From: Candidatus Woesebacteria bacterium
GTDB lineage: Bacteria > Patescibacteriota > Microgenomatia > UBA12405
Direction: 5' to 3'
Assembly: GCA_035402805.1 (NCBI GenBank)
Contig: DAONDY010000001.1
Location: 13,697-77,696, forward strand
Length of the DNA: 64,000 bases
Part shown: piece by piece, positions 6,087 through 54,309 of the stretch
How positions within the stretch are numbered: position 1 is the stretch's first letter
Layout of the letters: every line of letters begins with the position of its first letter
The notes under the pieces: generated by a model
Told to the model about the DNA's origin: nothing
The model's database searches: none
Seen by the model: only the letters and a program-made list of their open reading frames with translations
Made by a program: the position numbers and the translations under genes

Positions 6087-6103
6087 TCGTATATACTGGA
6101 TAT

Positions 6104-6688
6104 ATGGCTGTAAAAAAAGAGATTTCTCTTTTACCTGAATCTGAAAATCCGAGATCTTTTGGAGCTCGCTTTTTTAAATGGATTACTACCACCGGCAGAG
6201 TTACCATAATTTTAACCGAACTAGTTGTCATTTCTGTTTTTATATCTCGATTTTGGTTGGATCGTAAAAATTCTGACCTTTCAGAAGTTGTTCGTCAAAA
6301 ACAAGCAATTTTAGAAAGTATCGTCCCCTTTGAAACTGAATTCGTCCAATTACAACAAAGATTAAATTATATTAAAGATTTCTATTCTAATCAGCCAGAA
6401 TACAGTAATCAAATTAATTCTCTAATAGTTAGTACTCCAGAAGACTTATTTTACGAGAGTCTCTCAGTTTCTAAAGATGAAAAGTTGAAGTCAACCGTTA
6501 TAAACACCTCTCTGGTTGCCTACAAAGAAGAAAGTATTGTTAATTTTATTACCAATTTAATGCTAAATTCGGATATTGATCAGGTTGATGTCAATAAAAT
6601 CGAGAAAAAAGAAAAGGAGAATAAATATTCTGTATCGTTAACTTTATTTTTTAAACCAACTAAGGCCAAAGTTGTTAGTAAAATATGA
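6104..6688 (+). CDS. PilN-like type IV pilus assembly protein (single-pass membrane protein)
   Basis: 194 aa. N-terminal ISLLPE resembles the INLLP motif of PilN, followed by one TM and a soluble domain. Overlaps the next gene by 4 nt. Confidence 0.3.
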   Translation: MAVKKEISLLPESENPRSFGARFFKWITTTGRVTIILTELVVISVFISRFWLDRKNSDLSEVVRQKQAILESIVPFETEFVQLQQRLNYIKDFYSNQPEYSNQINSLIVSTPEDLFYESLSVSKDEKLKSTVINTSLVAYKEESIVNFITNLMLNSDIDQVDVNKIEKKEKENKYSVSLTLFFKPTKAKVVSKI

Positions 6689-7311
6689 TCGACACTAAAA
6701 ATTGGTTTCAGCTTAGACCGATGTATAGCTATATTAGAAAACAAGCTGAAAATGAAAAATTTTTAAAATATTTGGAAATTGGAGGGACATTCACTTTAAT
6801 TACCATTTTCTTGTTCTTTACCATTATGCCTACTATGGTTGCTATCTCTTCATTAATTGGAGAAATTAAATCCAAAGAGGCTTTTATTAAAAAAGTTAAT
6901 TTAAAAATTTCTAATGTTATTAAAGCCCAAGAGTCTTATTCTCAAGTTCAGGAAAAATATTCTTTAATTGAAGATAGTTTTCCTACTCTTGGCCAGTATT
7001 ACAAAGGTACATCCAATTTGGCAACCATTTTTAAACAATCATCATTAGACATAAATCAAATTAGTTTAAATCTAGACAAAGACGATAAAGATAATAAAGA
7101 TCAATTTTTTGATTCTTACGAAGTTAATGTCAGTGGTGAAGGTCAATATTCTTCAATTTTAGAGATGGTTAAAAAAATATTTGATAACCGTCGATTAGTT
7201 GATACCATTAGTATTAAAATTAATCAGGTGCCAGATCAAAATAATTCAAGAAATATTAAGGTTAATTTATCTAGCGATTTATATTATTTACCAAATAATG
7301 AAAAAAAATAA
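6685..7311 (+). CDS. PilO-like type IV pilus assembly protein
   Basis: 208 aa: cytoplasmic N-terminus, one TM, a coiled-coil stretch, then C-terminal YEVNVSGEGQYSSILEMVKKIFDNRRLVDTISI...IKVNL, as in PilO. Confidence 0.4.
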   Translation: MIDTKNWFQLRPMYSYIRKQAENEKFLKYLEIGGTFTLITIFLFFTIMPTMVAISSLIGEIKSKEAFIKKVNLKISNVIKAQESYSQVQEKYSLIEDSFPTLGQYYKGTSNLATIFKQSSLDINQISLNLDKDDKDNKDQFFDSYEVNVSGEGQYSSILEMVKKIFDNRRLVDTISIKINQVPDQNNSRNIKVNLSSDLYYLPNNEKK

Positions 7312-7603
7312 AATTAGTTTATATTTTATATTTATATCTTTTCTTACTTTTGTAACAGTTTTTGTTTCTATTGTTCAAAAAAGTTATTTTAATTTTAAAA
7401 AACCGCAAGCATTAGTTGAAAATAATAGCTTATTAAAAGAAATAAACCCTAACTTAGATTTATCCGTTATCTCCACTATCGAATCTAAAAATAAAAACAT
7501 TGAAGAACCTTTTGATTTCTCTATTATTAAATCAAACAAAAAAGAAGATAATTCTAATCAAATAAGCACCTCTGCCGGTGCTTTAAATAAACCTACACCT
7601 TAA
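7298..7603 (+). CDS. Small single-TM protein (hypothetical; possible pilus assembly accessory or minor component)
   Basis: Track ORF 7199..7603 trimmed to the internal start MKKNKISLYFIFISF... N-terminal TM. Stop overlaps the start of the next gene (ATG at 7603). Confidence 0.3.
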   Translation: MKKNKISLYFIFISFLTFVTVFVSIVQKSYFNFKKPQALVENNSLLKEINPNLDLSVISTIESKNKNIEEPFDFSIIKSNKKEDNSNQISTSAGALNKPTP

Positions 7604-8904
7604 TGTTAAAAGAAAAAAAGATACCAACTATACTAGGACTTCTTATTTTGACTGGAGCTGTTTTTGCCGGCGCTGTTTTAACTAATAAAAGTACTGATTT
7701 TACATCTAGAGCCAGTGGCGATTGTAAACCCATAAATCCTCAAGTTACTAATATAACTAACAATTCTGCTTCAATCTCTTTTCTCACCGAATCATCATGC
7801 TTATCTTCGTTATCTATCAACAATCAAACCATTAATAACAACGCTGTTTTAAACAGTGATCAAAAAAGCAAAATACATTATTTTGATGTCGCCAATCTAG
7901 ATAGCTCAACTAAATATGAGTTTTCATTAATTAATGACGGCAAGACCTACAAAAATTCTTTATACAAATTTGAGACAGCTTTAGATCCAAACGGTTTAAT
8001 CCCTTCATCTAATTTAGCCTGGGGTCGTGTTTTTACACCAGAATTAAAAGCTGCTAGTAAAGTCATGGTTTTTATTAATATTCCTAATGCATCACCATTA
8101 TCTGCTTTAGTAACCACTTCTGGTAATTGGAATATTTCTTTAGCTAATAGTTTCAACGAGTCAAGAACCGACAGGTTTACTCCATCTGATAACATTTCAG
8201 AAGAAATTATTGTCATTGATCAAGAAAAACAAATTACTCAAATCAACGCCAACACCTCTCAAAATGATCCCACGCCAGATATAATTTTAGGTCAAAACCA
8301 ATTTTCTTCGTTACCAGTTACTTTCAACGCTGAAACCAATACCGGTTCATTATCCTCAATTACTCCTGTTCCAAATTCTAAAGAGTTAGATATTCTAAAT
8401 CCTCAAAATGACGAATCTATTTCAACCAAAAAGCCAGATTTTTTTGGTACTGGTCCAAGTAAATCCACCATTAAAATAGAAATTCATTCTTCAACTGTTT
8501 ATAGTGGAGAAGTTATTGTTAATGACGATGGTTCTTGGAATTGGTCTCCTCCTTCAGACTTAGCCCCAGGGGAACACACCATTACCGTTACCTTAAAAGA
8601 TAATGGTCTTGAAAAAATTATTTCCAAAAAATTTACAGTTTTAGCCACTGACAGTAATCTTTCTTATTCGGCTTCGCCCTCAGCCATAACTGTTACTCCT
8701 ACAATTTCTAGTGCTCCCACTCCAACTAGCACTCTTGCCCCCACCGTTACCCCTACCCCCACTTTAGTCCCAACAATTCGTACTAGTAAACCCAGCACCA
8801 GTTCTGGAGTTCCAGTTACCGGTAATTTAATTCCAACCGTTGGTTTGATTTTACTTTCGTCATCATTTATCGGCTTTTCTTTTCTCTCTTTTAAGAAAAA
8901 ATAA
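7603..8904 (+). CDS. Secreted Ser/Thr/Pro-rich surface protein with a C-terminal cell-wall-sorting-like signal (VPVTG + hydrophobic + KKK)
   Basis: 433 aa. N-terminal signal/TM, an FN3-like segment, a low-complexity T/P/S linker, and C-terminal VPVTGNLIPTVGLILLSSSFIGFSFLSFKKK. Confidence 0.5.
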   Translation: MLKEKKIPTILGLLILTGAVFAGAVLTNKSTDFTSRASGDCKPINPQVTNITNNSASISFLTESSCLSSLSINNQTINNNAVLNSDQKSKIHYFDVANLDSSTKYEFSLINDGKTYKNSLYKFETALDPNGLIPSSNLAWGRVFTPELKAASKVMVFINIPNASPLSALVTTSGNWNISLANSFNESRTDRFTPSDNISEEIIVIDQEKQITQINANTSQNDPTPDIILGQNQFSSLPVTFNAETNTGSLSSITPVPNSKELDILNPQNDESISTKKPDFFGTGPSKSTIKIEIHSSTVYSGEVIVNDDGSWNWSPPSDLAPGEHTITVTLKDNGLEKIISKKFTVLATDSNLSYSASPSAITVTPTISSAPTPTSTLAPTVTPTPTLVPTIRTSKPSTSSGVPVTGNLIPTVGLILLSSSFIGFSFLSFKKK

Positions 8905-14841: not shown

Positions 14842-14862
14842 TATTTTTATGACTAATATGTA

Positions 14863-14911
14863 TTTCTCCCTTTTATCAAGGGGAGATGTCCGAAGGACAG
14901 AGGGGTTTTGA
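14863..14911 (+). repeat. Copy A of a ~49-nt two-hairpin repeated element (UCUCCC-loop-GGGAGA; UGUCC-GAA-GGACA; GAGGGGUUUUG)
   Basis: Near-identical copies at 22217-22267, 47404-47452 and 52283-52330 (- strand). Hairpin 2 shows compensatory substitutions between copies. Confidence 0.7.
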
Positions 14912-18922: not shown

Positions 18923-19966
18923 ATGGTTAGCAGAATTCTTACTGAAAAAGATAGAGAAAAATACAATAAATTAATTATTCACCCAGTTCAAACGTGGGAG
19001 TGGGGAGATTTTCAAATTTCCCAAGGTCATAAAGTTTATCGTCTTGGTTGTTTTGATGACCAAGATAAAATGATTTCTGCTTATTCTGTAAGTTTTCATA
19101 AAATTCCTAAAACTAAGTTTTCTATTGGAACAATTCTTCGTGGTCCAGAAATTAATGACGAAATGGTAAATAAAATTAATGAAATTGCCCAAAAGGAAAA
19201 TGCCATTTTTGTTAAGTTTGAATCAAATTCTATCTATAAAAATTATGATTCTTTCAACAATGAAACCTTAGTTAATTCCAAACCACAATTTCTTAATTTA
19301 AAAAAATCGCCTAAAGTTGCCTTTTATCCTTTCACTTATTTAATTGATTTAACTAAAACCGAAGATCAACTTCTAGAATCGATGCATCCTAAAACTCGTT
19401 ACAACATTAGAGTTGCCAATCGTTATGGAGTTGAAGTTAGGGAACAGACCGACGATAAAGGTTTTGAAATTTATTTAAAATTGCTTTTTGACACCACTAA
19501 ACGTCAAGGTTTTTATCTTCATAATGAAAAATATCATCGTGATTTATGGAAGAAATTAAAATCCACTGGCATGATTCATATTATGTTGGCCTCTTACCAA
19601 AACCAAGTTTTATCTGCTTTTATGATTTTTAACATTAAGGATCGACTTTTTTATCCCTACGGTGCTTCTCTCGATACCAATCGTCAAGTCATGGCTCCGA
19701 CTCTTTTGATGTGGGAAGTAATTAAACTTGGTCAGAAATTAAAATGTAGCACTTTTGACATGTGGGGTTGTCTTGGTCCTCACGCTAAAGAAAATGAAAA
19801 TGGTTACGGTTTTCATAGATTTAAGCAAGGTTTTGGTGGTCAACTAGTCGAGTATGTTGGAACTTATGATTTAGTCACCAATCCGGTTTTGTACAAAATA
19901 TACAATTCTGTTGATAAAATTCGTTGGTATCTTCTTCGTCTCAAAGCTTCAATCTTTAAAAAATAA
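18923..19966 (+). CDS. FemAB-family peptidoglycan interpeptide-bridge aminoacyltransferase (FemX-like)
   Basis: 347 aa. The N-terminal IHPVQTWEWGDFQ matches the FemX/FemAB signature (QSWEWGEFK). Two GNAT-like halves. Confidence 0.65.
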   Translation: MVSRILTEKDREKYNKLIIHPVQTWEWGDFQISQGHKVYRLGCFDDQDKMISAYSVSFHKIPKTKFSIGTILRGPEINDEMVNKINEIAQKENAIFVKFESNSIYKNYDSFNNETLVNSKPQFLNLKKSPKVAFYPFTYLIDLTKTEDQLLESMHPKTRYNIRVANRYGVEVREQTDDKGFEIYLKLLFDTTKRQGFYLHNEKYHRDLWKKLKSTGMIHIMLASYQNQVLSAFMIFNIKDRLFYPYGASLDTNRQVMAPTLLMWEVIKLGQKLKCSTFDMWGCLGPHAKENENGYGFHRFKQGFGGQLVEYVGTYDLVTNPVLYKIYNSVDKIRWYLLRLKASIFKK

Positions 19967-22192: not shown

Positions 22193-22216
22193 AAAATTTA
22201 AATTTTAAATTTTTGA

Positions 22217-22267
22217 CTTCTCCCTTTTTTAAGGGGAGATGTCGCTTTAGCGACAGAGAGGTTTTAA
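22217..22267 (+). repeat. Copy B of the two-hairpin repeated element (stem 2 = UGUCGC-UUUA-GCGACA)
   Basis: CTTCTCCCTTTTTTAAGGGGAGATGTCGCTTTAGCGACAGAGAGGTTTTAA, ending 2 nt before the gatB ATG. Confidence 0.7.
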
Positions 22268-42683: not shown

Positions 42684-44105
42684 ATGGCTAAAAAATTTAT
42701 CAAACTTAAATCCGAAGATTTATCTGAATGGTATAACGATCTTGTCGTTAAAGCCGAACTTGCCGATTATTCTCCAGTCAAAGGTTGTATGGTTATTCGT
42801 CCTTATGGTTATGCCATTTGGGAAAGAATTCAATCTTTTATGGATAAGTTTATTAAAGAAAAAGGTGTTCAAAATGCTTATTTTCCTATCTTCATTCCCG
42901 AAAGTTTTTTAAAAAAAGAAAAAGAACATGTTGAGGGTTTTGCCCCTGAATTAGCCGTTGTTACCATGGGTGGTGGTCAAGAATTAACCGAAAAATTAAT
43001 TGTCCGTCCCACTTCTGAAACCATTATGTACGAAATGTACAAAAAATGGACTCAAAGTTGGCGTGATTTACCAGTAAAAATGAATCAATGGTGCAATGTT
43101 GTCCGTTGGGAACAACGTACTTATTTATTTTTAAGAACAACTGAATTTTTATGGCAAGAAGGTCATTGTGCTCATGCCACCTCCGAAGAAAATAATGAAA
43201 TGGTTCAATGGGCTTTAGATCTTTATAAAAAAACTTATACCGATCTTTTGGCTATTTATGGAGTTACTGGTGTTAAAAGTGATGCAGAAAAATTTGCTGG
43301 TGCTGGTAAAACTTATACTATTGAGGCTCTGATGCCAAATGGTAAAGCTCTTCAAGCTGGAACTTCTCATGACCTTGGTCAAAATTTTGCCAAATCTTTT
43401 GATTGGTTTGTTTCCGATAAAAACGGTGAAAAACTTTATCCTTACCAAAACAGTTGGGGACTTTCCACTAGATCTATCGGTGGATTAATTATGATTCATG
43501 GTGATGATAATGGTTTAGTTTTCCCACCTCAAATTGCTCCAATTCAAATAGTTATTGTTCCAATTCCAAACCACCAAAAAGCATCCAAATTGGCCGAAGA
43601 TATTTTTATTAAAATAAAATCAAATTATCGTTGTCAGCTTGACGATACTGTTGATGAATCAGCTGGTTTTAAATTTAATAAATGGGAAATGAAAGGTGTT
43701 CCAATTAGAATTGAAATTGGCGATAAAGAAGCCGATCTTGATTCTGTAATTTTAGTTCGTCGCGACACTCTTGAAAAACAAACTATTAAAATTGCTGATT
43801 TGGAAAAAAATATTGATCAACTTTTAATTGATATTCAAAGCAATTTATTAGAAAAACACAAAAAATTTACTCAAAACAACACTTTTTCAGTTGATTCTTT
43901 TGATGAATTTAAAAAAATAATGTCCACTACTCGTGGTTTTATTTCCGCTCATTGGTGTGAAAATGCCGAATGTGAGGCAAAAATAAAAGAAGAAACCAAA
44001 GCTACTACTCGCTGTCTTCCAGATGGTCAGCCAGAAGAAGATGGTGTTTGTATTCACTGCGGTAAACCATCAAAACATCGTTGGCTATTTGCACAAAGCT
44101 ACTAA
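42684..44105 (+). CDS. proS: Prolyl-tRNA synthetase, archaeal/eukaryotic type with C-terminal zinc-binding domain
   Basis: 473 aa. Class II motifs and a C-terminal CxxC...CxxC segment. TATAAT at 42673-42678 lies 5 nt before the ATG, suggesting a leaderless transcript. Confidence 0.9.
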   Translation: MAKKFIKLKSEDLSEWYNDLVVKAELADYSPVKGCMVIRPYGYAIWERIQSFMDKFIKEKGVQNAYFPIFIPESFLKKEKEHVEGFAPELAVVTMGGGQELTEKLIVRPTSETIMYEMYKKWTQSWRDLPVKMNQWCNVVRWEQRTYLFLRTTEFLWQEGHCAHATSEENNEMVQWALDLYKKTYTDLLAIYGVTGVKSDAEKFAGAGKTYTIEALMPNGKALQAGTSHDLGQNFAKSFDWFVSDKNGEKLYPYQNSWGLSTRSIGGLIMIHGDDNGLVFPPQIAPIQIVIVPIPNHQKASKLAEDIFIKIKSNYRCQLDDTVDESAGFKFNKWEMKGVPIRIEIGDKEADLDSVILVRRDTLEKQTIKIADLEKNIDQLLIDIQSNLLEKHKKFTQNNTFSVDSFDEFKKIMSTTRGFISAHWCENAECEAKIKEETKATTRCLPDGQPEEDGVCIHCGKPSKHRWLFAQSY

Positions 44106-46872: not shown

Positions 46873-47133
46873 ATGGATATCACTCAAATTGTCATTATCA
46901 TCAGTTTAGTTGCTATTACCGCCATTATTATTATCAGCGGTGTATTTTTCATTAAATTATTAAAAGACTTAACCGTTACCATCAAAAAAACCAACTTAAT
47001 TCTTGATGATACTCATTTAATTACCGATTCTGTGGCTAAACCAGTTTCTTCTTTTTCAGAGGTTCTTATGGGTTTAAAAAATGGTTTTTCTTTTTTTAAC
47101 AATTTATCGAAAAACAAAAAGAAAGATGAATAA
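46873..47133 (+). CDS. Small single-TM protein (hypothetical)
   Basis: 86 aa. N-terminal TM helix IVIIISLVAITAIIIISGVFFI. Confidence 0.35.
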   Translation: MDITQIVIIISLVAITAIIIISGVFFIKLLKDLTVTIKKTNLILDDTHLITDSVAKPVSSFSEVLMGLKNGFSFFNNLSKNKKKDE

Positions 47134-47398
47134 GGAAGAGGAAAAAGTAAGCTCTGGTTTTATTTTTGGTCTAACTTTAGGTGCTGCGATTGGAGCCATT
47201 TCCGCCATTTTAGTCAATAAAAACAGTAAAACCGAGGTTATTGAAAATTTTGAATCCAAGGTTAAAGATTTTTTCCAAGATTTAATTAGTGACGTTAAAA
47301 TTTCCGCCAAAGGCGGATCCTCCTCTGGCGGAAAAGAAGTTGAATATATTACTCCCAAAAAACCTGCTCCCAAGATGTTTGTTAAACCGAAAAGATAA
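47126..47398 (+). CDS. YtxH-like small membrane-associated protein
   Basis: Track ORF trimmed to MNKEEEKVSSGFIFGLTLGAAIGAISAILVNKNSKTE..., matching the YtxH GxxxGxxxGAxxALLxAPKSGKE pattern. Confidence 0.4.
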   Translation: MNKEEEKVSSGFIFGLTLGAAIGAISAILVNKNSKTEVIENFESKVKDFFQDLISDVKISAKGGSSSGGKEVEYITPKKPAPKMFVKPKR

Positions 47399-47403
47399 GA
47401 TAA

Positions 47404-47452
47404 TTTCTCCCTTTTATCAAGGGGAGATGTCCGAAGGACAGAGGGGTTTTGA
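47404..47452 (+). repeat. Copy C of the two-hairpin repeated element, identical in its structured core to copy A
   Basis: TTTCTCCCTTTTATCAAGGGGAGATGTCCGAAGGACAGAGGGGTTTTGA. Lies between the YtxH-like gene and alaS. Confidence 0.7.
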
Positions 47453-47470
47453 ACTGATATAATCAACTTT

Positions 47471-49324
47471 ATGAATGTCAGAGAAATCAGAAAAAAATTT
47501 ATCGATTTTTATAAAGCCCGTGGTCATATTGAAATTCCTTCTGTTTCTTTAGTTCCAGAAAACGATCCCTCTACTCTTTTTACTTCCGCTGGAATGCAAC
47601 CAATGATGCTCTATCTTTTAGGAGAAAAGCATCCACTTGGAAAAAGAATTGTCGATTCTCAAAAATGTTTTCGTTCTCAAGATATTGAAGAAGTTGGCGA
47701 TAATCGTCACACCACCTTTTTTGAAATGTTAGGTAATTGGTCTTTAGGGGATTATTTTAAAAAAGAACAACTCGAATTTATTTTTACTTTTCTTACTGAT
47801 AAAAACGAAGGAATAGGCCTCGATCCAAATCGAATTCATGTTTCTGTTTTTAAAGGTGATGAAAATCAAAAATTAATGCCCGACACTGAAACCATAGACC
47901 TTTGGATTAAGCTTTTTGGAAAATATAACATAAAAGCGGGAATTGGTAATCACATTTTTACCTATCCATCCAACAAAAATTGGTGGTCTCGTTCCGGTTC
48001 TCCTGATAAAATGCCTGCAGGTGAACCTGGTGGTCCAGACAGTGAAATTTTTTATGATTTTGGTCCAGAACTAAAACTACATGAAAACTCAAAATGGAAA
48101 GATCAACCCTGCCATATAAATTGTGATTGTGGTCGTTTCTTAGAAATCGGCAATTCTGTGTTTATGCAATACCTTAAACAATCAGATGGTAGTTTAAAAG
48201 ATTTACCTCAAAAAAACATTGACTTTGGAGGTGGTTTAACCAGACTAGAAGCCGTTTCTAAAAATAACCCCGACATGTTTAATATTTCCACCCTTAGCCC
48301 TTTAATTAAGGAAATAGAAAAAATTTCCCAAAAATCGTATTCAGATTTAGACAATAAAGCTCCAATGAGAATTATTGCCGATCATATTACTGCCTCGGTT
48401 TTTTTAATTAATGATGGCGTTGTTCCTAGTAATAAAGCTCAAGGTTATGTGCTTCGTCGTTTAATTCGTCGGGCTATTCGTCAAGGAAAAATAATCAACA
48501 TCGAAAATGATTTGATTGTAAAAATAGCTAAATTAGTTATTAATGACGAAAATTATACCGATAAATACCCAGAACTTATTCAAAACCAAAATAATATTTT
48601 AGACATTTTAACCACTGAAGAAAATAAATTTAGAAAAACTTTAAACAATGGTCTTCGTGAAATTAATAAACTAATTACTAGAAATAAAACTGTTTCCGGT
48701 AAAGAAGCTTTTACTCTTTATGAAACTTTCGGTTTTCCAGTTGAAATGATTCAAGAGGAATTAGCTAAAAATAATTTAACTCTAAATATAGATGATTTTG
48801 ATCAGGCCAAACTTGATCATCAAAAACTTTCTCAGACTTTATCTGCCGGCAAGTTTAAATCAGGTTTAGCCGATAATTCGGAAATTATTACTAAATTTCA
48901 TACTGTCGCCCACTTGCTTCACGCCGCTTTAAGAAAAGTTCTTGGCAGTCATGTTCAACAAGCTGGTTCAAATATTACCTCGGAAAGAATTCGTTTTGAT
49001 TTTACTAACCCCGAAAAATTAACTGAAGATCAGTTAAAACAAGTGACAGATTTGGTTAATGATCAAATTAAATTAAAATTACCGGTTACTGTTGAAAATA
49101 TGCCCTTTACTGAGGCGACCAAAAAAGGTGCTTTAGCTTTTTTTGGTAACAAATATCCAGAAAATGTTACCGTTTATACCATCGGTTCAAAGGAAAATTA
49201 TTTTTCAAAAGAAGTTTGCACTGGTCCTCATGTTGCCAATTTATCTGTACTTGGTCATTTTGAAATCTTTAAAGAAGAATCCGCTGGGAGTGGTAAACGC
49301 CGTATCTATGCAGTCCTAAAATAG
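47471..49324 (+). CDS. alaS: Alanyl-tRNA synthetase, short form (catalytic, tRNA-binding and editing domains; no C-Ala domain)
   Basis: 617 aa. N-terminal FIDFYKARGHIEIPSVSLVP...FTSAGMQ. Editing-domain HxxxH (HTVAHLLH) and CxxxH (CTGPH). ORF ends ~170 aa before the usual C-terminus. Confidence 0.85.
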   Translation: MNVREIRKKFIDFYKARGHIEIPSVSLVPENDPSTLFTSAGMQPMMLYLLGEKHPLGKRIVDSQKCFRSQDIEEVGDNRHTTFFEMLGNWSLGDYFKKEQLEFIFTFLTDKNEGIGLDPNRIHVSVFKGDENQKLMPDTETIDLWIKLFGKYNIKAGIGNHIFTYPSNKNWWSRSGSPDKMPAGEPGGPDSEIFYDFGPELKLHENSKWKDQPCHINCDCGRFLEIGNSVFMQYLKQSDGSLKDLPQKNIDFGGGLTRLEAVSKNNPDMFNISTLSPLIKEIEKISQKSYSDLDNKAPMRIIADHITASVFLINDGVVPSNKAQGYVLRRLIRRAIRQGKIINIENDLIVKIAKLVINDENYTDKYPELIQNQNNILDILTTEENKFRKTLNNGLREINKLITRNKTVSGKEAFTLYETFGFPVEMIQEELAKNNLTLNIDDFDQAKLDHQKLSQTLSAGKFKSGLADNSEIITKFHTVAHLLHAALRKVLGSHVQQAGSNITSERIRFDFTNPEKLTEDQLKQVTDLVNDQIKLKLPVTVENMPFTEATKKGALAFFGNKYPENVTVYTIGSKENYFSKEVCTGPHVANLSVLGHFEIFKEESAGSGKRRIYAVLK

Positions 49325-49358: not shown

Positions 49359-51566
49359 ATGGGTATTAATAGTTTTTGGCTGTTTTATATTGAAGCCGAC
49401 AGTATTTTAGTTTCTCTCATTAGTTGGGGAAATGGCCGCTATTATGTTGCTTCAATCGGTCCTAGAGTTGAATGTGACATCAATAATAAAGAATCACTTT
49501 TAAAAGCGGCTGATGAGTCCCTTTCCAGTGCTGCCGCCAGCGCCGATATTCCAGAAGATCAAGAACCGATGTTTGCTGGGCTAGTTATCCCTTCGTCTTG
49601 GGTGGGTCCAGATGGCAAAATTACTAAAGAAAAATCAGATATTATTTTGCCTCTTCTTAAAGAGCTTGACCTTAAACCATCAGGTTTTATGTCCAACGAT
49701 GAAGCCATTATTGAAGAATCAAACAAACCCGATGATTTTCCCGCTAGTTTCATTAATCTCTATTTAGAATCTAATGCCTTTGAATTATCTTTAATTTATC
49801 TTGGCAAAGTAAAAAAAAGAATCAGAAAAGTTTTTGACACCGAATTTAATGCCCAACTAGTCGAAGATTCTCTATTAGAATTAAATTCCGATTCAACCTT
49901 ACCTCCTCAAATTTATGTTTATGGTAAAGCTGATGATTTAGTTATCGAAAATCTTAAAAATTTTCCCTGGGTTGGTAAAAAAAATGTTGAAACTTTTCTC
50001 CATTTTCCCGAAATTAAACTCTATCAAGACCATGATTTAATAAATATTTTTTTTAAGGCCATCACTTCTCAAATGATTGGTGGGGGAAATCCTAATCATC
50101 AACCTCTTCCTCAGGCTGAAGATCAAGAACCAGAAGAGTCATTAGATTCAGAAGAATCACCAGAGCCAGAAGAGGTAAAAACAGTTGAAAATTTGGAAGA
50201 AGTTGAAGAGATTGAAGAAACGCCAGAAGTGTCAGAACCTTCAGAAGAAAATTTAGAAGAAGTTTCTTTTAGCGATTTAGGTTTTGCCAAAGAAGAAGCT
50301 GTTGTTGTTCCTCCTCGAGAGATTTTCAATATTGAACCTATCAATACTGAGCCTGTCGAAGCACCTAAACCAGAGAAAAAACCAATTTCTTTTAATTTTC
50401 CTAAAATAAAATTTAAGCTTCCCAAATTTAAAAATAATTTTTTGCTTTTTATTTTTCCCATCGCTTTAGTCATTCTTTTTCTACCCATTCTATTTTCCAA
50501 AGCCAATATCGTTCTTTTTGTTACTCCATACGAATTTAATAAAACAGTTAACGTTACTCTTGATTCTAATGCCACCAGTCTCACTTCCTCAGTCATTCCC
50601 GTCGACAAAAAAACAGTTACTATAAATTCTTCTGTTACTATCAAAACCACTGGCCAAAAAGTTATCGGTAATAAAGCCACTGGTGAAATTACTATTTTTA
50701 ATAAAGTTGAAAAAGTTCAAAGTATCCCTAAAGGTTCAATTTTAATTGATTCTAAAAATCAAAAATTTGAATTGATGAGTGCTGTCCAGGTCGCTTCTAG
50801 CAGCTCTAATTTTAATGCTAATCCGCCAACCATGGTTCTCGGTCAATTGAAAACTGTAATTTCCGCCAGTGATATTGGGCCTGAATACAATATTCCCAAA
50901 GAGACCACTTTACATTTTAAAGATTTTCCCGAAACTTCAATTATTGTTAAAAGCAATACTGATTTTACTGGGGGAACTAAAGAACAAATTGGTGCCGTCA
51001 GCCAACAGGATAAAGTTGCCGCTGAGGCTCAGTTAGCTTTGAAATTAAAAGAAGAAGCCGATCAAAAAATAAGCCAGGAATTTAATACTTCAAATAATGC
51101 CATTAAAGAGACTATTCAAACCAAAAAAGGTAAAACTGAACTCAATCGTGAAGTAGGGGAGGAAACTGATGAACTAACTGCCAGTGCCGATTCGACTGTC
51201 AGTGTTTTTGTTTTTAAACCCGAGTTAAAAAATCAAATACTAGCTCAATTATTATCATCAGAAACTGGTTATTCTGATTCTGATATAAATCCCGACTCTT
51301 TCGTTTTCACCTTAAAAATCGATAAATTAGATTCCAACAAGGCCACTGGTAGTTTAAATATTAAAGGTTCTTCTCTGCCAAAAATTAACGTTGAATTGCT
51401 TAAGAAAAATATTTCCGCTAAAACTACCAAAAAAGCTCAAGAAATTATTAAAAAAACTATCAGCCGTGTCTATGATTATAATTTAAAAATTACTTTTAAA
51501 ATTTTTAATATTTTACCTTTAAACACAAAGAATATTTTTATTGATGTTAAAAACGAATCACCGTGA
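49359..51566 (+). CDS. Membrane protein with an N-terminal FtsA/PilM-like actin-fold segment, acidic linker, one TM and a large extracytoplasmic domain
   Basis: 735 aa. N-terminal FWLFYIEADSILVSLISWGNGRYYVASIG resembles the FtsA/PilM first beta-hairpin (hLDIGssKIavlV), with a degenerate phosphate loop. Glu-rich linker, TM ~residues 352-372. Stop overlaps the sortase start (ATGA). Confidence 0.45.
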   Translation: MGINSFWLFYIEADSILVSLISWGNGRYYVASIGPRVECDINNKESLLKAADESLSSAAASADIPEDQEPMFAGLVIPSSWVGPDGKITKEKSDIILPLLKELDLKPSGFMSNDEAIIEESNKPDDFPASFINLYLESNAFELSLIYLGKVKKRIRKVFDTEFNAQLVEDSLLELNSDSTLPPQIYVYGKADDLVIENLKNFPWVGKKNVETFLHFPEIKLYQDHDLINIFFKAITSQMIGGGNPNHQPLPQAEDQEPEESLDSEESPEPEEVKTVENLEEVEEIEETPEVSEPSEENLEEVSFSDLGFAKEEAVVVPPREIFNIEPINTEPVEAPKPEKKPISFNFPKIKFKLPKFKNNFLLFIFPIALVILFLPILFSKANIVLFVTPYEFNKTVNVTLDSNATSLTSSVIPVDKKTVTINSSVTIKTTGQKVIGNKATGEITIFNKVEKVQSIPKGSILIDSKNQKFELMSAVQVASSSSNFNANPPTMVLGQLKTVISASDIGPEYNIPKETTLHFKDFPETSIIVKSNTDFTGGTKEQIGAVSQQDKVAAEAQLALKLKEEADQKISQEFNTSNNAIKETIQTKKGKTELNREVGEETDELTASADSTVSVFVFKPELKNQILAQLLSSETGYSDSDINPDSFVFTLKIDKLDSNKATGSLNIKGSSLPKINVELLKKNISAKTTKKAQEIIKKTISRVYDYNLKITFKIFNILPLNTKNIFIDVKNESP

Positions 51567-52282
51567 GCTATCTTTATCTTAAAAAAAATACCCCCTCCCC
51601 AAAAAATAAATCGACCGCCAAAAAGAAAAAAATGGCTACTATCTTTCTGGTCATTGGTTTAGTCTTTTTCTTTTCAGCTCTTTTCCCCATTCTTAAGTTT
51701 CAACTCCAGTCTTCGCTTAATTTCAGTCAAATGATTAACCCTCTTTCTTTAAAATCTTACAGCGGTTCTCAAAATATTTTAGGCACAGTTACTACCGATT
51801 ACACTCAAATGGCTAATTGGTTTGTTGCCGATTCTAGCGAAAATAATCAGCTTTTTTCCAATAACAATAACTTAACTTATAAAATTTCTATTCCTAAATT
51901 AAAAATTAAAGATGCCGTTGTGACTATTGGTAGTATGGATTTAAAAAAAAGTTTAATTCAATATCCCCAAACGGCTCTTCCTGGTCAACTTGGAAATACT
52001 GTCGTTTTCGGACACTCAGTTTTGCCTCAATTTTTTAATCCAAACAATTATCTAACCATTTTTTCTACCCTCTATAAGTTAAAACAGGGAGATGAAATAT
52101 TTATTGAATACGATAGCGTCCAATATAAATATATTATTAATGAAATGTTCGAAGTTAAACCCACCGACCTTTCGGTTCTTGAACAACGTTTTGATCAAAA
52201 AAATTTGACTCTTATAACTTGCAGTCCCCCAGGCACTTATCTTCGCCGTCTTATCATTAAAGCCAGTTTGAGCATTAATTAA
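51563..52282 (+). CDS. Sortase-family transpeptidase
   Basis: 239 aa. N-terminal TM. Catalytic His region (VVFGHS) and the TLITC active-site Cys motif (NLTLITCSPPG), followed by a conserved Arg (YLRR). Confidence 0.7.
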   Translation: MSYLYLKKNTPSPKNKSTAKKKKMATIFLVIGLVFFFSALFPILKFQLQSSLNFSQMINPLSLKSYSGSQNILGTVTTDYTQMANWFVADSSENNQLFSNNNNLTYKISIPKLKIKDAVVTIGSMDLKKSLIQYPQTALPGQLGNTVVFGHSVLPQFFNPNNYLTIFSTLYKLKQGDEIFIEYDSVQYKYIINEMFEVKPTDLSVLEQRFDQKNLTLITCSPPGTYLRRLIIKASLSIN

Positions 52283-52330
52283 AATCCTCTCTGTCACTTT
52301 GTGACATCTCCCCTTAACAAAGGGAGAAGT
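52283..52330 (-). repeat. Copy D of the two-hairpin repeated element (minus orientation; stem 2 = UGUCAC-AAA-GUGACA)
   Basis: Reverse complement reads ACTTCTCCCTTTGTTAAGGGGAGATGTCACAAAGTGACAGAGAGGATTTT. Overlaps the 3' end of the DUF559 gene, between convergent sortase (+) and DUF559 (-). Confidence 0.65.
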
Positions 52331-52683
52331 CTTTCTAAAACTTTATCAAAGTTATTCAATATTTCATCGTTAGTAAATCTGATGGTTTTAATATTTACTG
52401 CCTTTAAATATTGATCTCTTAACAAATCATAGTTTTTCTTTTTATTATGTGAACCACCATCAATTTCAATACATAACGATAATTCACGACAATAAAAATC
52501 TAAAATAAATCTAAACATTGGTTTCTGTCTTAAAAATCTATATTTACTTTTTCTTAAATATCTCCACATTACATATTCTGCATCTGTTGGATTCTTTCTG
52601 TTATTTATAGTTAATACTTTTAATTCTTCTAAATACCTAATATGACCCTTTTGTGTTACATAATTATCATCTGTAAATTTCAT
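52294..52683 (-). CDS. DUF559-family endonuclease-domain protein (Vsr-like fold)
   Basis: 129 aa. EYVMWRYLR...FRFLRQKPMFRFILDFYCRELSLCIEIDGGSH...IKTIRFTNDEI matches the DUF559 pattern (ErxLWxxLR...FRRQ...DFyC...ElDGxxH...RF.N.ev). Confidence 0.7.
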   Translation of the reverse strand: MKFTDDNYVTQKGHIRYLEELKVLTINNRKNPTDAEYVMWRYLRKSKYRFLRQKPMFRFILDFYCRELSLCIEIDGGSHNKKKNYDLLRDQYLKAVNIKTIRFTNDEILNNFDKVLERLLPLLRGDVTK

Positions 52684-52704: not shown

Positions 52705-52753
52705 TTTCCTCCCTTGATAAGGGAGGATACCGGTTTACCCGGAGGAAGGATTT
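52705..52753 (+). repeat. Diverged copy E of the two-hairpin element (CCUCCC-UUGAUAA-GGGAGG; ACCGG-UUUA-CCCGG; GGAGGAAGGAUUU)
   Basis: Same architecture as A-D with different stem sequences. Lies in the divergent DUF559 / ruvX region. Confidence 0.45.
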
Positions 52754-52807
52754 AAAAAAAAGCCCTGAAATGAATATTCAAACTTGAAGGTTTGTTATAA
52801 TCCTCCT

Positions 52808-53179
52808 ATGAATTATCTTTCTATTGATTATGGCACTAAAAATATTGGTCTAGCTGTTTCCATTCTTAATATTATTACTCCGATTCCTGCCATTAAAAAT
52901 GATGATCAGGTTATTGAAAATATTAAAAAAATTATTACCGATTACAAAATCGATAAAATTTATATTGGCGTCTCTGAAGGTCGCTTCGCCGATATCACCA
53001 AAACTTTCATCGACAAGCTTCGTTCTATGTTAAAATTAGATATAGAAACAGTCGAAGAAGCTGTTAGCACCATCGAAGCTCAGCAGATTTACATTAAAAA
53101 TAAAAATAAAAAGAAAGATTACAAAAAATTAATTGACTCGGTGGCCGCCGCAGTTATTTTAAGAAGAGTAGTAGATTAA
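52808..53179 (+). CDS. ruvX: Holliday-junction-resolvase-like / pre-16S rRNA nuclease (RuvX/YqgF)
   Basis: Track ORF trimmed to MNYLSIDYGTKNIGLAVS..., the YqgF signature (hLGlDhGtKrIGvAvs). Confidence 0.7.
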   Translation: MNYLSIDYGTKNIGLAVSILNIITPIPAIKNDDQVIENIKKIITDYKIDKIYIGVSEGRFADITKTFIDKLRSMLKLDIETVEEAVSTIEAQQIYIKNKNKKKDYKKLIDSVAAAVILRRVVD

Positions 53180-53194
53180 TAGTTTAATAAAATT

Positions 53195-53392
53195 ATGATC
53201 AAAAACCTAATTTCCCCCATCCAAGCCTGGTTATTATCACAGGGTCGTTGCGTTGGCTGTGGCACTTCACTTTCTCATGGTGCCAAAAAAGATGTCAGAG
53301 GCAAAACCACTGTCACCTGTAGATGCGGTCGTATTTTTATTTATGACGGTGTCAAGGGCACTTATCGTCGAGCTTTATTTGACGAAATCTAA
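53195..53392 (+). CDS. Small zinc-ribbon protein (CxxC ... CxC), hypothetical
   Basis: 65 aa. CVGCGTSL...CRCGRIF. Lies between ruvX and mltG. Confidence 0.35.
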   Translation: MIKNLISPIQAWLLSQGRCVGCGTSLSHGAKKDVRGKTTVTCRCGRIFIYDGVKGTYRRALFDEI

Positions 53393-53394
53393 AA

Positions 53395-54309
53395 ATGGCT
53401 CGGGTTTTTGCAATTATTAGCCTTTCTGTCGTTATTTTATTAGCGGGTATTTTTTCCTATCTAAAAGTTAATAATCGAGCCGTTTCCGCCGATACTTCCA
53501 ATATTATGTTTACCATCAAAGATGGTGACAGCTTGGTAAATATTTCCAAAAATCTAGAATCAAAATCATTAATTAGAAATAAATATTCCTTTTTATTTTA
53601 TGCCTACACTTTGGGATTAAATAAAAAAATCCAAGCGGGGACTTTTCGTCTTTCTCCTTCTTTATCTACTAAAGATTTAATCGTCAAGCTTTCCAAAGGC
53701 GGTGTTAGTGATTATTGGTTAAAAATCATTGAAGGTACTAGAGTTGAAGAGAACGATGTAAAAAATGCCAAAGAAGGCTATCTTTTTCCCGACAGTTATT
53801 TAATTCCTACTTATTACACCGCCGATCAAATTCTCCAAGTTATTCAATCAAATTTTGATAAAAAATTTGCTCAAGCCAAAGAGGGGGCTACTAATAAAAA
53901 ACTAACCGACAAAGAAATTGTTATTTTTGCCTCGATTTTGGAAAGAGAAGCCAGAAGTTTAAAGTCCAAACAGGAAGTAGCGGGTATTCTTTTAAATCGC
54001 CTCGAAATTGGTATGGCTTTACAAGTCGATGCTTCGGTTCAATATGCTCGTGACACTAAAAATAAACCAAAAAAATATTGGGAACCACTTTCTAAAGCCG
54101 ATATTTCCATTATTTCTCCATTTAATACCTACAAAAACCCAGGTCTTCTACCGTCTCCCATTTGTAATCCAGGCTATGATGCAATTTATGCCGCTTTTCA
54201 TCCAACTGCGTCCAATTATCTGTATTACATCACTGGTAACGATAATTTAATGCACTATGCCGTCACTCTCGATCAGCACAATTCTAACATCGCCAACTAT
54301 CTAAAATAA
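53395..54309 (+). CDS. mltG: Endolytic murein transglycosylase MltG (YceG-like)
   Basis: 304 aa. N-terminal TM. YceG motifs IVIFASILEREA, GILLNRLEIGMALQVDASVQYA, FNTYKNPGLLPSPICNPG. Confidence 0.8.
   Translation: MARVFAIISLSVVILLAGIFSYLKVNNRAVSADTSNIMFTIKDGDSLVNISKNLESKSLIRNKYSFLFYAYTLGLNKKIQAGTFRLSPSLSTKDLIVKLSKGGVSDYWLKIIEGTRVEENDVKNAKEGYLFPDSYLIPTYYTADQILQVIQSNFDKKFAQAKEGATNKKLTDKEIVIFASILEREARSLKSKQEVAGILLNRLEIGMALQVDASVQYARDTKNKPKKYWEPLSKADISIISPFNTYKNPGLLPSPICNPGYDAIYAAFHPTASNYLYYITGNDNLMHYAVTLDQHNSNIANYLK

What the first reader, a model, noticed from the sequence alone, without database searches (positions are those of the whole stretch)
49359..52683. Insertion in the conserved alaS-ruvX-mltG block: FtsA/PilM-like-fused membrane protein + sortase + DUF559 endonuclease
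alaS, ruvX (yqgF) and mltG (yceG) are contiguous in many bacteria. Here about 3.4 kb sits between alaS and ruvX. It holds a 735-aa protein with an actin-fold-like N-terminus with degenerate ATP-binding residues, an acidic linker, a TM and a ~370-aa extracellular domain, translationally coupled (ATGA) to a sortase with a TLITC active site. A DUF559 endonuclease follows on the opposite strand, bracketed by copies D and E of the repeat element. A cytoplasmic actin-like domain coupled to a sortase is unusual. It may be a PilM-PilN-like fusion for pilus assembly, or a novel envelope-anchoring system.
Basis: partly seen in the sequence, partly recalled or inferred. Interest (0 to 1): 0.55.

Follow-up and report, generated by a model that had tools for sequence, protein, structure and literature searches.

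The report
Conserved actin-fold membrane protein plus sortase
This is not an insertion but an ancestral, uncharacterised two-gene module of Microgenomates (candidate phyla radiation) bacteria, in which a membrane protein with an FtsA/PilM-like inner domain and a phage-baseplate-like outer domain is translationally coupled to the cell's sortase inside a cell-wall and division gene block.

Summary
The 735-aa ORF is 49359-51566 and the sortase is 51563-52282. DUF559 is 52294-52683 on the minus strand. All lie between alaS and ruvX/mltG.

The order ftsK-rodZ-alaS-[this protein]-sortase-ruvX-65aa-mltG recurs in about 55 species-level Shapirobacteria genomes. Its core persists in relatives of only 23-28% identity, including Levybacteria-type ones. 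The sortase GTG start overlaps the upstream stop (GTGA, not ATGA) in 42 of 55 loci. Only DUF559, with its hairpin repeats, is a local insertion, found in 3 loci and in both orientations.

Candidate substrates carry [VI/L]Px[TA]G sorting signals. One is in the window at 7603-8904.

My best guess is a transmembrane scaffold that positions the housekeeping sortase. This is inferred, not shown.

The architecture is undescribed. Databases name family members "hypothetical" or "baseplate J/gp47 family protein".

The parts
47471..49324 (+). alaS (short 617-aa alanine-tRNA ligase). It forms the upstream border of the module.
   Evidence: PF01411 1.5e-119; NF002436 1e-195. It lies directly upstream of the 735-aa gene in all loci.
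49359..50078 (+). Residues 1-240 of the 735-aa protein. This is a cytoplasmic minimal ASKHA (actin-fold) core of two beta-beta-beta-alpha-beta-alpha-beta-alpha halves. It has no 1B/1C/2B inserts and no conserved phosphate loops.
50079..50438 (+). Residues 241-360. This is a disordered acidic cytoplasmic linker ending in a basic stretch (KIKFKLPKFK) before the TM helix.
   Evidence: pLDDT below 50 for residues 248-299 and 311-349. Alignments A1 and A3.
50253..50285 (+). Residues 299-309 (LEEVSFSDLGF). This is a conserved short linear motif, L-x-E...[LF]-G-F, within the linker.
   Evidence: G308 is 99% and F309 100% conserved in 116 close sequences. They are 91% and 98% conserved in 56 sequences of 22-41% identity. 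There is a local pLDDT bump to 60. P0302 keeps the motif as DFGF.
50439..50495 (+). Residues 361-379. This is a single transmembrane helix with N-in, C-out topology.
   Evidence: Helix 361-378 in the model. The hydrophobic run F361-F379 is preceded by Lys-rich sequence.
50496..51566 (+). Residues 380-735 plus the stop codon. This is the extracellular baseplate-J-like domain.
   Evidence: pLDDT mostly above 90. Pfam Baseplate_J hits 41 of 56 family members, best 2e-7. PHROG phrog_6 (baseplate wedge) hits P0302 and P0254. Foldseek BFVD gives Baseplate J-like proteins at 2e-8 to 1e-5. PDB hits include phi812, phiCD508 and XM1 baseplate chains.
51563..52282 (+). Sortase of 239 aa with an N-terminal membrane anchor. 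Its GTG start overlaps the TGA stop of the upstream gene.
   Evidence: PF04203 3e-25; TIGR01076 above its cut-off; no class-specific model reaches its cut-off. The -4 overlap occurs in 42 of 55 loci. H151, C220 and R228/229 are at least 95% conserved.
52294..52683 (-). DUF559 (Vsr/restriction-endonuclease-like) gene. It is the only truly inserted gene in the interval.
   Evidence: PF04480 1e-26. It occupies this slot only in the window, in L007 (minus strand) and in L015 (plus strand). Most loci have nothing here or another filler gene.
52290..52337 (-). Repeat copy D, a tandem double hairpin that overlaps the 3' end of DUF559.
52707..52750 (+). Repeat copy E, a double hairpin lying between the DUF559 start and ruvX.
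52784..53179 (+). ruvX (yqgF)
   Evidence: PF03652 4.5e-23
53195..53392 (+). Conserved 65-aa Cys-rich (CxxC...CxC) protein
   Evidence: 61-92% identical across loci. No Pfam hit.
53395..54309 (+). mltG (yceG), an endolytic transglycosylase
   Evidence: PF02618 1.6e-62; TIGR00247
7603..8904 (+). Candidate sortase substrate. It has a signal peptide, a Big_13 Ig-like domain, a Pro/Thr stalk and the C-terminal sequence SGVPVTG followed by a hydrophobic segment and KKK.
   Evidence: The signal SG[VI]Px[TS]G is kept in homologues from more than 20 loci.

Best explanation
What it is:
The interval holds a vertically inherited two-gene module of Microgenomates, not an insertion.
- Gene 1 encodes a bitopic membrane protein. 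Its cytoplasmic part is a stripped-down FtsA/PilM-like actin-fold core that has lost the nucleotide-binding loops. This is followed by a disordered acidic linker carrying a conserved [LF]-G-F motif. Then come one TM helix and an extracellular domain related to phage baseplate protein J.
- Gene 2 is the organism's sortase. It is catalytically intact, belongs to no defined class, and starts on a GTG that overlaps gene 1's stop codon.
- The pair sits in a conserved envelope and division block (ftsK, rodZ-like, alaS, ruvX, mltG).

Proposed mechanism (inferred):
- Gene 1 is a transmembrane scaffold.
- Its pseudo-actin domain and linker motif oligomerise, or dock onto a cytoplasmic partner such as a bona fide ASKHA cytoskeletal protein.
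- Its ectodomain holds or organises the co-translated sortase at sites of wall synthesis.
- There, proteins ending in [VI/L]Px[TA]G are attached.

The DUF559 gene and its flanking hairpins are a separate, recent, small insertion in the sortase-ruvX spacer.
For: Shown:
- Gene identities.
- ASKHA fold with FtsA and PilM nearest.
- Non-conserved P1 and P2 loops, and a conserved [LF]GF motif.
- TM helix and a confident ectodomain.
- Baseplate-J relationship.
- A large full-length family: 6869 clusters at E<=1e-3, 1487 at <=1e-30.
- Identical gene order in 55 GTDB species loci and in relatives of 23-28% identity. The pair stays together even where ftsK and rodZ are inverted and ruvX is lost (L063).
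- GTGA overlap in 42 of 55 loci, and the rest within 6 nt.
- Conserved sortase triad.
- Substrate candidates with sorting signals in the window and near the cluster in relatives.
- A FemAB gene and murJ in the window.
- Published work reports the sortase family as near ubiquitous in Microgenomates and patchy elsewhere in CPR (PMC6744442).
- DUF559 is variable in presence and orientation, with hairpins alongside it in L007 and L015.
Against: - No result shows physical or functional interaction between gene 1 and the sortase. Conserved translational coupling is strong but indirect evidence.
- To my knowledge, no characterised sortase needs such a scaffold.
- The ASKHA core lacks the 1C and 2B subdomains that FtsA and PilM use to bind FtsN/PilN and FtsZ, so the cytoplasmic partner cannot be inferred by analogy.
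- The role of a baseplate-J-like domain outside a contractile tail is unknown.
- The taxonomic range beyond Microgenomates was not established.
Confidence: 0.45

Rival explanations
1. Gene 1 is a division or elongation protein in its own right. It would be an FtsA-like membrane tether whose ectodomain acts on or senses peptidoglycan. The sortase would merely be co-transcribed with it in a housekeeping operon.
For: - The neighbours are ftsK, a RodZ-like HTH_25 protein and mltG.
- The cluster is followed by rpoB and rpoC, so it is a core housekeeping region.
Against: - The 1C subdomain and the amphipathic C-terminal helix of FtsA are absent, and the nucleotide loops are degenerate.
- The stop/start overlap with the sortase is conserved far more strictly than any other junction in the block.
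- The pair stays together when the rest of the block rearranges.
Confidence: 0.2
2. Gene 1 is a PilM-PilN-type (GspL-like) alignment subunit of a pilus or fibre machine. It would possibly work with the orphan PilN-like and PilO-like pair at 6104-7311, and the sortase would attach or polymerise the Big_13 protein encoded next to that pair.
For: - A conserved operon reads murJ, PilN-like (N-terminal KKEISLLP, resembling the PilM-binding INLLP motif of PilN), PilO-like, a small bitopic protein, then a [VI]PxTG protein. It contains no PilM gene.
Against: - The two operons are 43 kb apart.
- The Pfam PilN and PilO hits are below their gathering scores.
- The PilN-binding groove of PilM needs subdomain 1C, which is missing here.
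- The ectodomain is not PilN-like.
- Microgenomates type IV pilus loci are reported to carry their own PilM (PMC7143001), which is the simpler partner for the PilN-like protein.
- No pilin, PilB or PilC genes lie near either operon.
Confidence: 0.15
3. One reading: a horizontally acquired 3.4-kb island inserted into an ancestral alaS-ruvX-mltG block.
For: - alaS-ruvX-mltG is contiguous in many other bacteria (general knowledge).
- The DUF559 gene with its flanking hairpins does behave as an insertion.
Against: - The same genes are at the same place in all related loci from 79% down to 23% identity.
- GC content matches the neighbours.
- The sortase diverges in step with the neighbouring genes.
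Confidence: 0.02
4. A prophage or contractile-injection-system remnant: a domesticated baseplate protein unrelated to wall biology.
For: Baseplate-J similarity by Pfam, PHROG and fold.
Against: - No other phage or tail genes are present in any locus.
- The gene shows vertical conservation in a housekeeping block.
- It is fused to a TM helix and a cytoplasmic ASKHA domain.
- The window protein itself has no PHROG hit.
Confidence: 0.03

Closest known systems
FtsA (bacterial actin-like division protein)
   Different: This protein has no 1C subdomain and no conserved phosphate or adenosine motifs. It has a true TM helix instead of an amphipathic tail, and a large ectodomain. There is no Pfam FtsA match (1 of 56 members at E 0.069).
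PilM, and GspL/EpsL-type bitopic PilM-PilN-like proteins of type IV pilus and type II secretion systems
   Different: It is not in a pilus or secretion operon. The ectodomain is baseplate-J-like, not the ferredoxin-like PilN/GspL periplasmic domain. The 1C-type subdomain is missing, and ATP-site residues are not conserved.
Baseplate protein J / gp47 / T4 gp6-type baseplate wedge proteins (PF04865, phrog_6)
   Same: Sequence-level similarity over about 100 residues in many family members, and fold-level similarity over about 340 columns. NCBI names the Levybacteria members 'baseplate J/gp47 family protein'.
   Different: It is a cellular, membrane-anchored, extracytoplasmic domain in a housekeeping operon with no tail genes. 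Global superposition is poor (TM-score 0.1-0.25, normalised by the whole query and by the target, with a different domain arrangement). The window protein itself does not reach any Pfam or PHROG threshold.
Housekeeping sortases of Gram-positive bacteria (class A and class E)
   Same: An N-terminal membrane anchor and a His-Cys-Arg triad with a TLxTC motif. Substrates carry an LPXTG-like signal followed by a hydrophobic segment and a basic tail.
   Different: It reaches no class-specific NCBIfam cut-off. The substrate motifs are [VI]Px[TS]G and LPx[AT]G. It is translationally coupled to an ASKHA/baseplate-J membrane protein, which is not known for characterised sortases.
TsaB/YeaZ and other minimal, nucleotide-free ASKHA proteins
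   Same: A core-only actin fold of about 230-250 residues without nucleotide binding, which acts through protein-protein contacts (Foldseek hit 2gel YeaZ, 1.5e-6).
   Different: There is no sequence relationship. TsaB is soluble and pairs with TsaD. No such partner is identified here.

Membership tests
ASKHA (actin/Hsp70/sugar-kinase) superfamily | Two RNase-H-like beta-beta-beta-alpha-beta-alpha-beta-alpha subdomains | tested here: met
   AF2 secondary structure has E5-11, E15-24, E27-33, H44-62, E72-77, H90-102, E106-112, H113-121, and the same pattern again over residues 131-240.
ASKHA (actin/Hsp70/sugar-kinase) superfamily | Significant structural similarity to several members | tested here: met
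ASKHA (actin/Hsp70/sugar-kinase) superfamily | Phosphate-1 (DxG), phosphate-2 (DxGGG) and adenosine motifs for ATP binding | tested here: not met
   Loops 12-14 and 137-139 are variable and lack conserved Asp or Gly. Only G189 is kept in close relatives, and in 57% of distant ones.
FtsA | Sequence match to the FtsA / SHS2_FtsA models | tested here: not met
   No Pfam or NCBIfam hit. PF14450 matches 1 of 56 members at E 0.069. No PDB sequence hit.
FtsA | Subdomain 1C and a C-terminal amphipathic membrane-targeting helix | tested here: not met
   The 240-residue core has no insert. Membrane attachment is by a TM helix at 361-379.
FtsA | Binds the FtsZ C-terminal peptide and polymerises | not testable with these tools
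   Would need complex prediction or biochemistry.
PilM / GspL | Encoded in a pilMNO(PQ) or type II secretion operon | tested here: not met
   The neighbours are alaS, sortase, ruvX and mltG in all loci.
PilM / GspL | Binds the N-terminal INLLP-type peptide of PilN in the 1A/1C groove | not testable with these tools
   A PilN-like protein with the sequence KKEISLLP exists at 6104-6688. The 1C half of the groove is absent from the model.
PilM / GspL | Ferredoxin-like PilN/GspL periplasmic domain after the TM helix (GspL type) | tested here: not met
   The ectodomain matches baseplate-J proteins.
Baseplate_J (PF04865) / baseplate wedge | Sequence match to the family model | tested here: inconclusive
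   The window protein has no hit at E<=1. 41 of 56 homologues hit PF04865 (best 2e-7), and P0302 and P0254 hit phrog_6 (about 1e-6).
Baseplate_J (PF04865) / baseplate wedge | Fold similarity to baseplate J / wedge proteins | tested here: met
   Foldseek BFVD gives 2e-8 to 1e-5, probability 1.00. PDB hits are 9euf_I at 3.9e-8, 9gb2_G and 7kh1_A5.
Baseplate_J (PF04865) / baseplate wedge | Part of a contractile tail or injection-system gene cluster | tested here: not met
   No tail genes occur in any locus.
Sortase (PF04203 / TIGR01076) | Domain match above the curated cut-off | tested here: met
   PF04203 scores 88.8 bits against a cut-off of 26.6. TIGR01076 scores 56.5 against 39.35.
Sortase (PF04203 / TIGR01076) | Catalytic His, the Cys of TLxTC, and Arg | tested here: met
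   H151, C220 and R228/R229 are at least 95% conserved in 51 sequences.
Sortase (PF04203 / TIGR01076) | Assignment to a defined class (A-F, GN) | tested here: not met
   All class-specific models fall far below their cut-offs. For example, class C scores 61 against 160 and class E scores 51 against 160.
Sortase (PF04203 / TIGR01076) | Genome encodes proteins with a C-terminal sorting signal | tested here: met
   Window ORF 7603-8904 ends in SGVPVTG, a hydrophobic segment and KKK. Homologues keep SG[VI]Px[TS]G. Small Big_13 proteins with LPx[AT]G lie near the cluster in relatives.
DUF559 (PF04480) | Domain match above the curated cut-off | tested here: met
   93.3 bits against a cut-off of 20.6.

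The most novel reading that the evidence does not exclude
The two deeply conserved operons would together encode a previously undescribed Microgenomates envelope machine. One operon is alaS-[ASKHA-TM-baseplateJ]-sortase-mltG. The other is murJ-PilN-like-PilO-like-small bitopic-[VI]PxTG Ig-like protein. A PilM-like pseudo-actin scaffold with a ring-forming baseplate-like ectodomain would combine with PilN/PilO-like partners. This assembly would organise sortase-dependent attachment, or polymerisation, of an Ig-like surface protein at the site of lipid II export. It would be a hybrid of type IV pilus alignment-complex logic and the Gram-positive sortase pathway.
Probability: 0.12. Interest if true: 0.8.

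Novelty: new variant of a known kind. Interest (0 to 1): 0.55.

Why it matters
Microgenomates are a large, uncultivated part of the candidate phyla radiation, and almost nothing is known about how their envelope is built. Published family surveys noted that a sortase is near universal in this group (PMC6744442). They did not note that it is always translationally coupled to a 700-800-aa membrane protein.

This work shows that protein joins a nucleotide-free FtsA/PilM-like domain inside the cell to a phage-baseplate-like domain outside. If the two proteins work together, it would be the first case of a sortase organised by a transmembrane actin-fold scaffold. It would also be a cellular use of the baseplate-J fold outside contractile tails.

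It also gives a concrete, testable candidate for how these tiny cells place surface proteins. For annotation, the N-terminal domain is currently invisible to Pfam and NCBIfam. Family members are named "hypothetical" or, misleadingly, "baseplate J/gp47 family protein".

Tried and rejected
- **Sequence searches of the 735-aa protein and its profiles.** Pfam, NCBIfam, PHROGs and PDB sequences gave nothing for the window protein. Only fold comparison, and scans of distant homologues, identified the domains.
- **Fold library afdb50.** It was not available.
- **The search for related loci with the diverse alignment A5.** It failed for lack of a conserved stretch. A1 was used instead, so the genome sampling is biased towards Shapirobacteria.
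- **First sorting-signal scan.** My first strict regular expression missed the VPVTG protein. A hydropathy-based scan found it.
- **Literature.** Searches for sortase, baseplate J, FtsA and CPR found no description of this protein.
- **Insertion or island reading.** Rejected on synteny.
- **Prophage remnant.** Rejected because no phage genes are present.
- **Gene 1 as a sortase substrate.** I considered this and found no support. There is no C-terminal sorting signal, and the C-terminus is the end of the ectodomain.
- **Hairpin repeats.** They have no Rfam match, and their folding energies are only modestly better than shuffles. I did not resolve what they do.
- **Tail of the hmmsearch list.** I could not see beyond the best 150 of 6869 hits, so the spread outside Microgenomates is unknown.


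Full report
**1. What is in the sequence**

- alaS is 47471-49324.
- A 735-aa ORF is 49359-51566.
- A 239-aa ORF is 51563-52282.
- A 129-aa ORF on the minus strand is 52294-52683.
- ruvX is 52784-53179.
- A 65-aa Cys-rich ORF is 53195-53392.
- mltG is 53395-54309.

Pfam and NCBIfam confirm AlaRS, sortase (PF04203, 3e-25; TIGR01076 above its cut-off), DUF559 (PF04480, 1e-26), RuvX and YceG/MltG. They find nothing for the 735-aa protein. Upstream are proS, ftsK and a RodZ-like HTH_25 membrane protein.

The best matches place the organism in Candidatus Shapirobacteria, within the Microgenomates of the candidate phyla radiation. GC content across the interval matches its surroundings.

One detail is wrong. 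The sortase starts on a GTG that overlaps the TGA stop, so the overlap is GTGA and not ATGA.

**2. The 735-aa protein**

AlphaFold2 on residues 1-245 with 29 homologues gives a confident model (pLDDT 86.9, pTM 0.85). It has two successive beta-beta-beta-alpha-beta-alpha-beta-alpha units, which is the bare ASKHA core.

There is no room for the 1B/1C or 2B inserts. The two hairpin loops that carry the phosphate-binding DxG and DxGGG motifs in active ASKHA proteins are residues 12-14 and 137-139. They are variable and lack conserved Asp or Gly, both in 116 close homologues and in 56 distant ones. The similarity is visible only at the fold level, because profile searches of PDB sequences find nothing.

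The full-length model, built with 116 homologues, has a mean pLDDT of 83. Its features are:
- a disordered acidic linker (residues 242-349);
- a single TM helix (361-378), preceded by a Lys-rich stretch, which indicates an N-in topology;
- a confidently folded ectodomain of about 355 residues.

Inside the linker, one short motif, L-x-E...[LF]-G-F (residues 299-309), is almost invariant even among homologues of 22-41% identity. Gly is 91% and Phe 98% conserved there, and the motif shows a local confidence bump. It looks like a docking peptide. Its partner is unknown.

The ectodomain is related to phage baseplate protein J. Four results support this.
- Pfam Baseplate_J matches 41 of 56 distant family members, best 2e-7.
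- PHROG phrog_6 (baseplate wedge subunit) matches two distant members at about 1e-6.
- Foldseek on viral models returns Baseplate J-like proteins at 2e-8 to 1e-5.
- PDB hits include the phi812, phiCD508 and XM1 baseplate chains.

NCBI already names the Levybacteria members "baseplate J/gp47 family protein". The window protein itself stays below every sequence threshold.

**3. It is not an insertion**

Four lines of evidence agree.
- An exhaustive profile search finds 6869 clusters (at 50% identity) at E<=1e-3 and 1487 at <=1e-30. The best 150 are almost all full length, 650-836 aa.
- In 55 species-representative genomes, the order ftsK-rodZ-alaS-[this gene]-sortase-ruvX-65aa-mltG is present wherever the contig reaches.
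- The same order holds in relatives of 40-41% identity labelled Woesebacteria or Patescibacteria. It also holds at 23-28% identity (P0220, P0165, P0272).
- In a Levybacteria-type relative (P0302, 26% identity), ftsK and rodZ are inverted and ruvX is missing. Even so, alaS-[gene]-sortase-mltG persists.

The sortase start overlaps the upstream stop by 4 nt in 42 of 55 loci and lies within 6 nt in the rest. The first sortase residues (Y3, Y5, K7) are conserved, so the GTG start is real. The pair is therefore an old, translationally coupled unit.

**4. What is inserted**

Only the spacer between the sortase and ruvX varies.
- It holds DUF559 here, in L007 (same orientation) and in L015 (opposite orientation).
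- It holds a NUDIX gene in L001.
- It holds other fillers in a few loci, and nothing in most.

DUF559 is bracketed by two copies of a tandem double-hairpin repeat. That repeat also occurs at 14862, 22215 and 47403 in the window, and beside DUF559 in L007 and L015. It is a small, ordinary, mobile-looking insertion.

**5. The sortase and its substrates**

His151, Cys220 (in TLITC) and Arg228/229 are conserved in 51 sequences. No class-specific NCBIfam model comes near its cut-off, so the enzyme belongs to an unclassified clade. Méheust et al. reported a sortase family that is near ubiquitous in Microgenomates and patchy elsewhere in CPR (PMC6744442).

A hydropathy scan found one clear substrate candidate in the window. 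ORF 7603-8904 has:
- a signal peptide;
- a Big_13 Ig-like domain;
- a Pro/Thr stalk;
- a C-terminal SGVPVTG followed by a hydrophobic segment and KKK.

Its homologues in more than 20 metagenome loci keep SG[VI]Px[TS]G. In several relatives, small Big_13 proteins with LPx[AT]G signals lie a few genes past mltG.

**6. How it probably works**

Shown:
- the architecture;
- the loss of the nucleotide loops;
- the conserved linker motif;
- the strict coupling to an intact sortase;
- the envelope and division neighbourhood;
- the presence of sorting-signal proteins.

Inferred:
- The protein is a transmembrane scaffold.
- Its pseudo-actin domain and linker motif oligomerise or dock on a cytoplasmic partner.
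- Its ectodomain organises the sortase where wall is made.

I give this 0.45. The rivals are:
- an FtsA-like division protein whose link to the sortase is only transcriptional (0.2);
- a PilM-PilN-type subunit of a pilus-like machine (0.15);
- a phage remnant (0.03);
- an acquired island (0.02).

The pilus-like rival gains some colour from an unexpected observation. A second deeply conserved operon reads murJ, PilN-like, PilO-like, small bitopic protein, then the [VI]PxTG protein. It contains no PilM gene. Its PilN-like protein begins with KKEISLLP, which resembles the PilM-binding INLLP peptide.

Three points weigh against that link.
- The ASKHA core here lacks the 1C subdomain, which forms half of that binding groove.
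- The PilN and PilO Pfam hits are below threshold.
- Microgenomates type IV pilus loci are reported to carry their own PilM (PMC7143001).

**7. Comparison with known systems, and novelty**

Each domain belongs to a known fold class. The sortase is a sortase.

What I could not find in any Pfam or NCBIfam model, or in any paper searched, is the combination. That combination is a nucleotide-free FtsA/PilM-like core, a TM helix and a baseplate-J-like ectodomain, hard-wired to the housekeeping sortase across a whole class-level lineage.

I rate it a new variant of known kinds, of moderate interest (0.55). The headline claim of an insertion is wrong. The underlying object is real, widespread, unannotated and testable.

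Noticed in passing
window 14862-14910 (+), 22215-22262 (+), 47403-47450 (+), 52290-52337 (-), 52707-52750 (+); also L007 4198 and 8948, L015 8981 and 9014: A repeated tandem double hairpin followed by a GAGG-rich tail. The first stem is nearly constant. The second stem differs in sequence between copies but keeps its pairing. Copies A, B and C end 8-25 nt before the start codons of the DUF2298 ORF, gatB and alaS. There is no Rfam match. The function was not resolved; it could be REP-like, a leader or a terminator.
   Followed up: partly
window 4473-8904; loci L066-L128: A conserved operon reads murJ, PilN-like (6104-6688, N-terminal KKEISLLP), PilO-like (6685-7311), a small bitopic ORF (about 7301-7603), then a Big_13 protein with an SG[VI]Px[TS]G sorting signal (7603-8904), followed by ubiA and two PMT_2 glycosyltransferases. 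It is kept in more than 25 metagenome loci, down to 31-35% identity. No PilM gene is present in it.
   Followed up: partly
window 53195-53392: A 65-aa CxxC...CxC protein lies between ruvX and mltG. It is 61-92% identical across loci where the 735-aa protein is only about 40% identical. It has no Pfam family and is unusually constrained for a tiny ORF.
   Followed up: no
window 42684-44105; L001, L002, L004, L062, L064: The proS slot upstream of ftsK holds different ProRS architectures in relatives. Here and in L001 it is 473 aa with ProRS-C_1. In L002 it is 408 aa. In L004, L062 and L064 it is about 570 aa with the bacterial editing domain. This suggests the synthetase type was replaced in situ.
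   Followed up: no
window 18923-19966: A FemAB-family gene, which implies a peptide branch on lipid II. That branch would be the natural acceptor for a sortase.
   Followed up: no
window 46873-47398; L063, L064: Two small membrane ORFs between the RodZ-like gene and alaS are conserved in position across loci. The second matches YtxH in some relatives.
   Followed up: no
L010-L013, L015-L019 and others: Many GTDB records that carry this Shapirobacteria-type locus are titled 'uncultured Gammaproteobacteria bacterium'. This is evidently a mislabel in the deposited MAG records.
   Followed up: no
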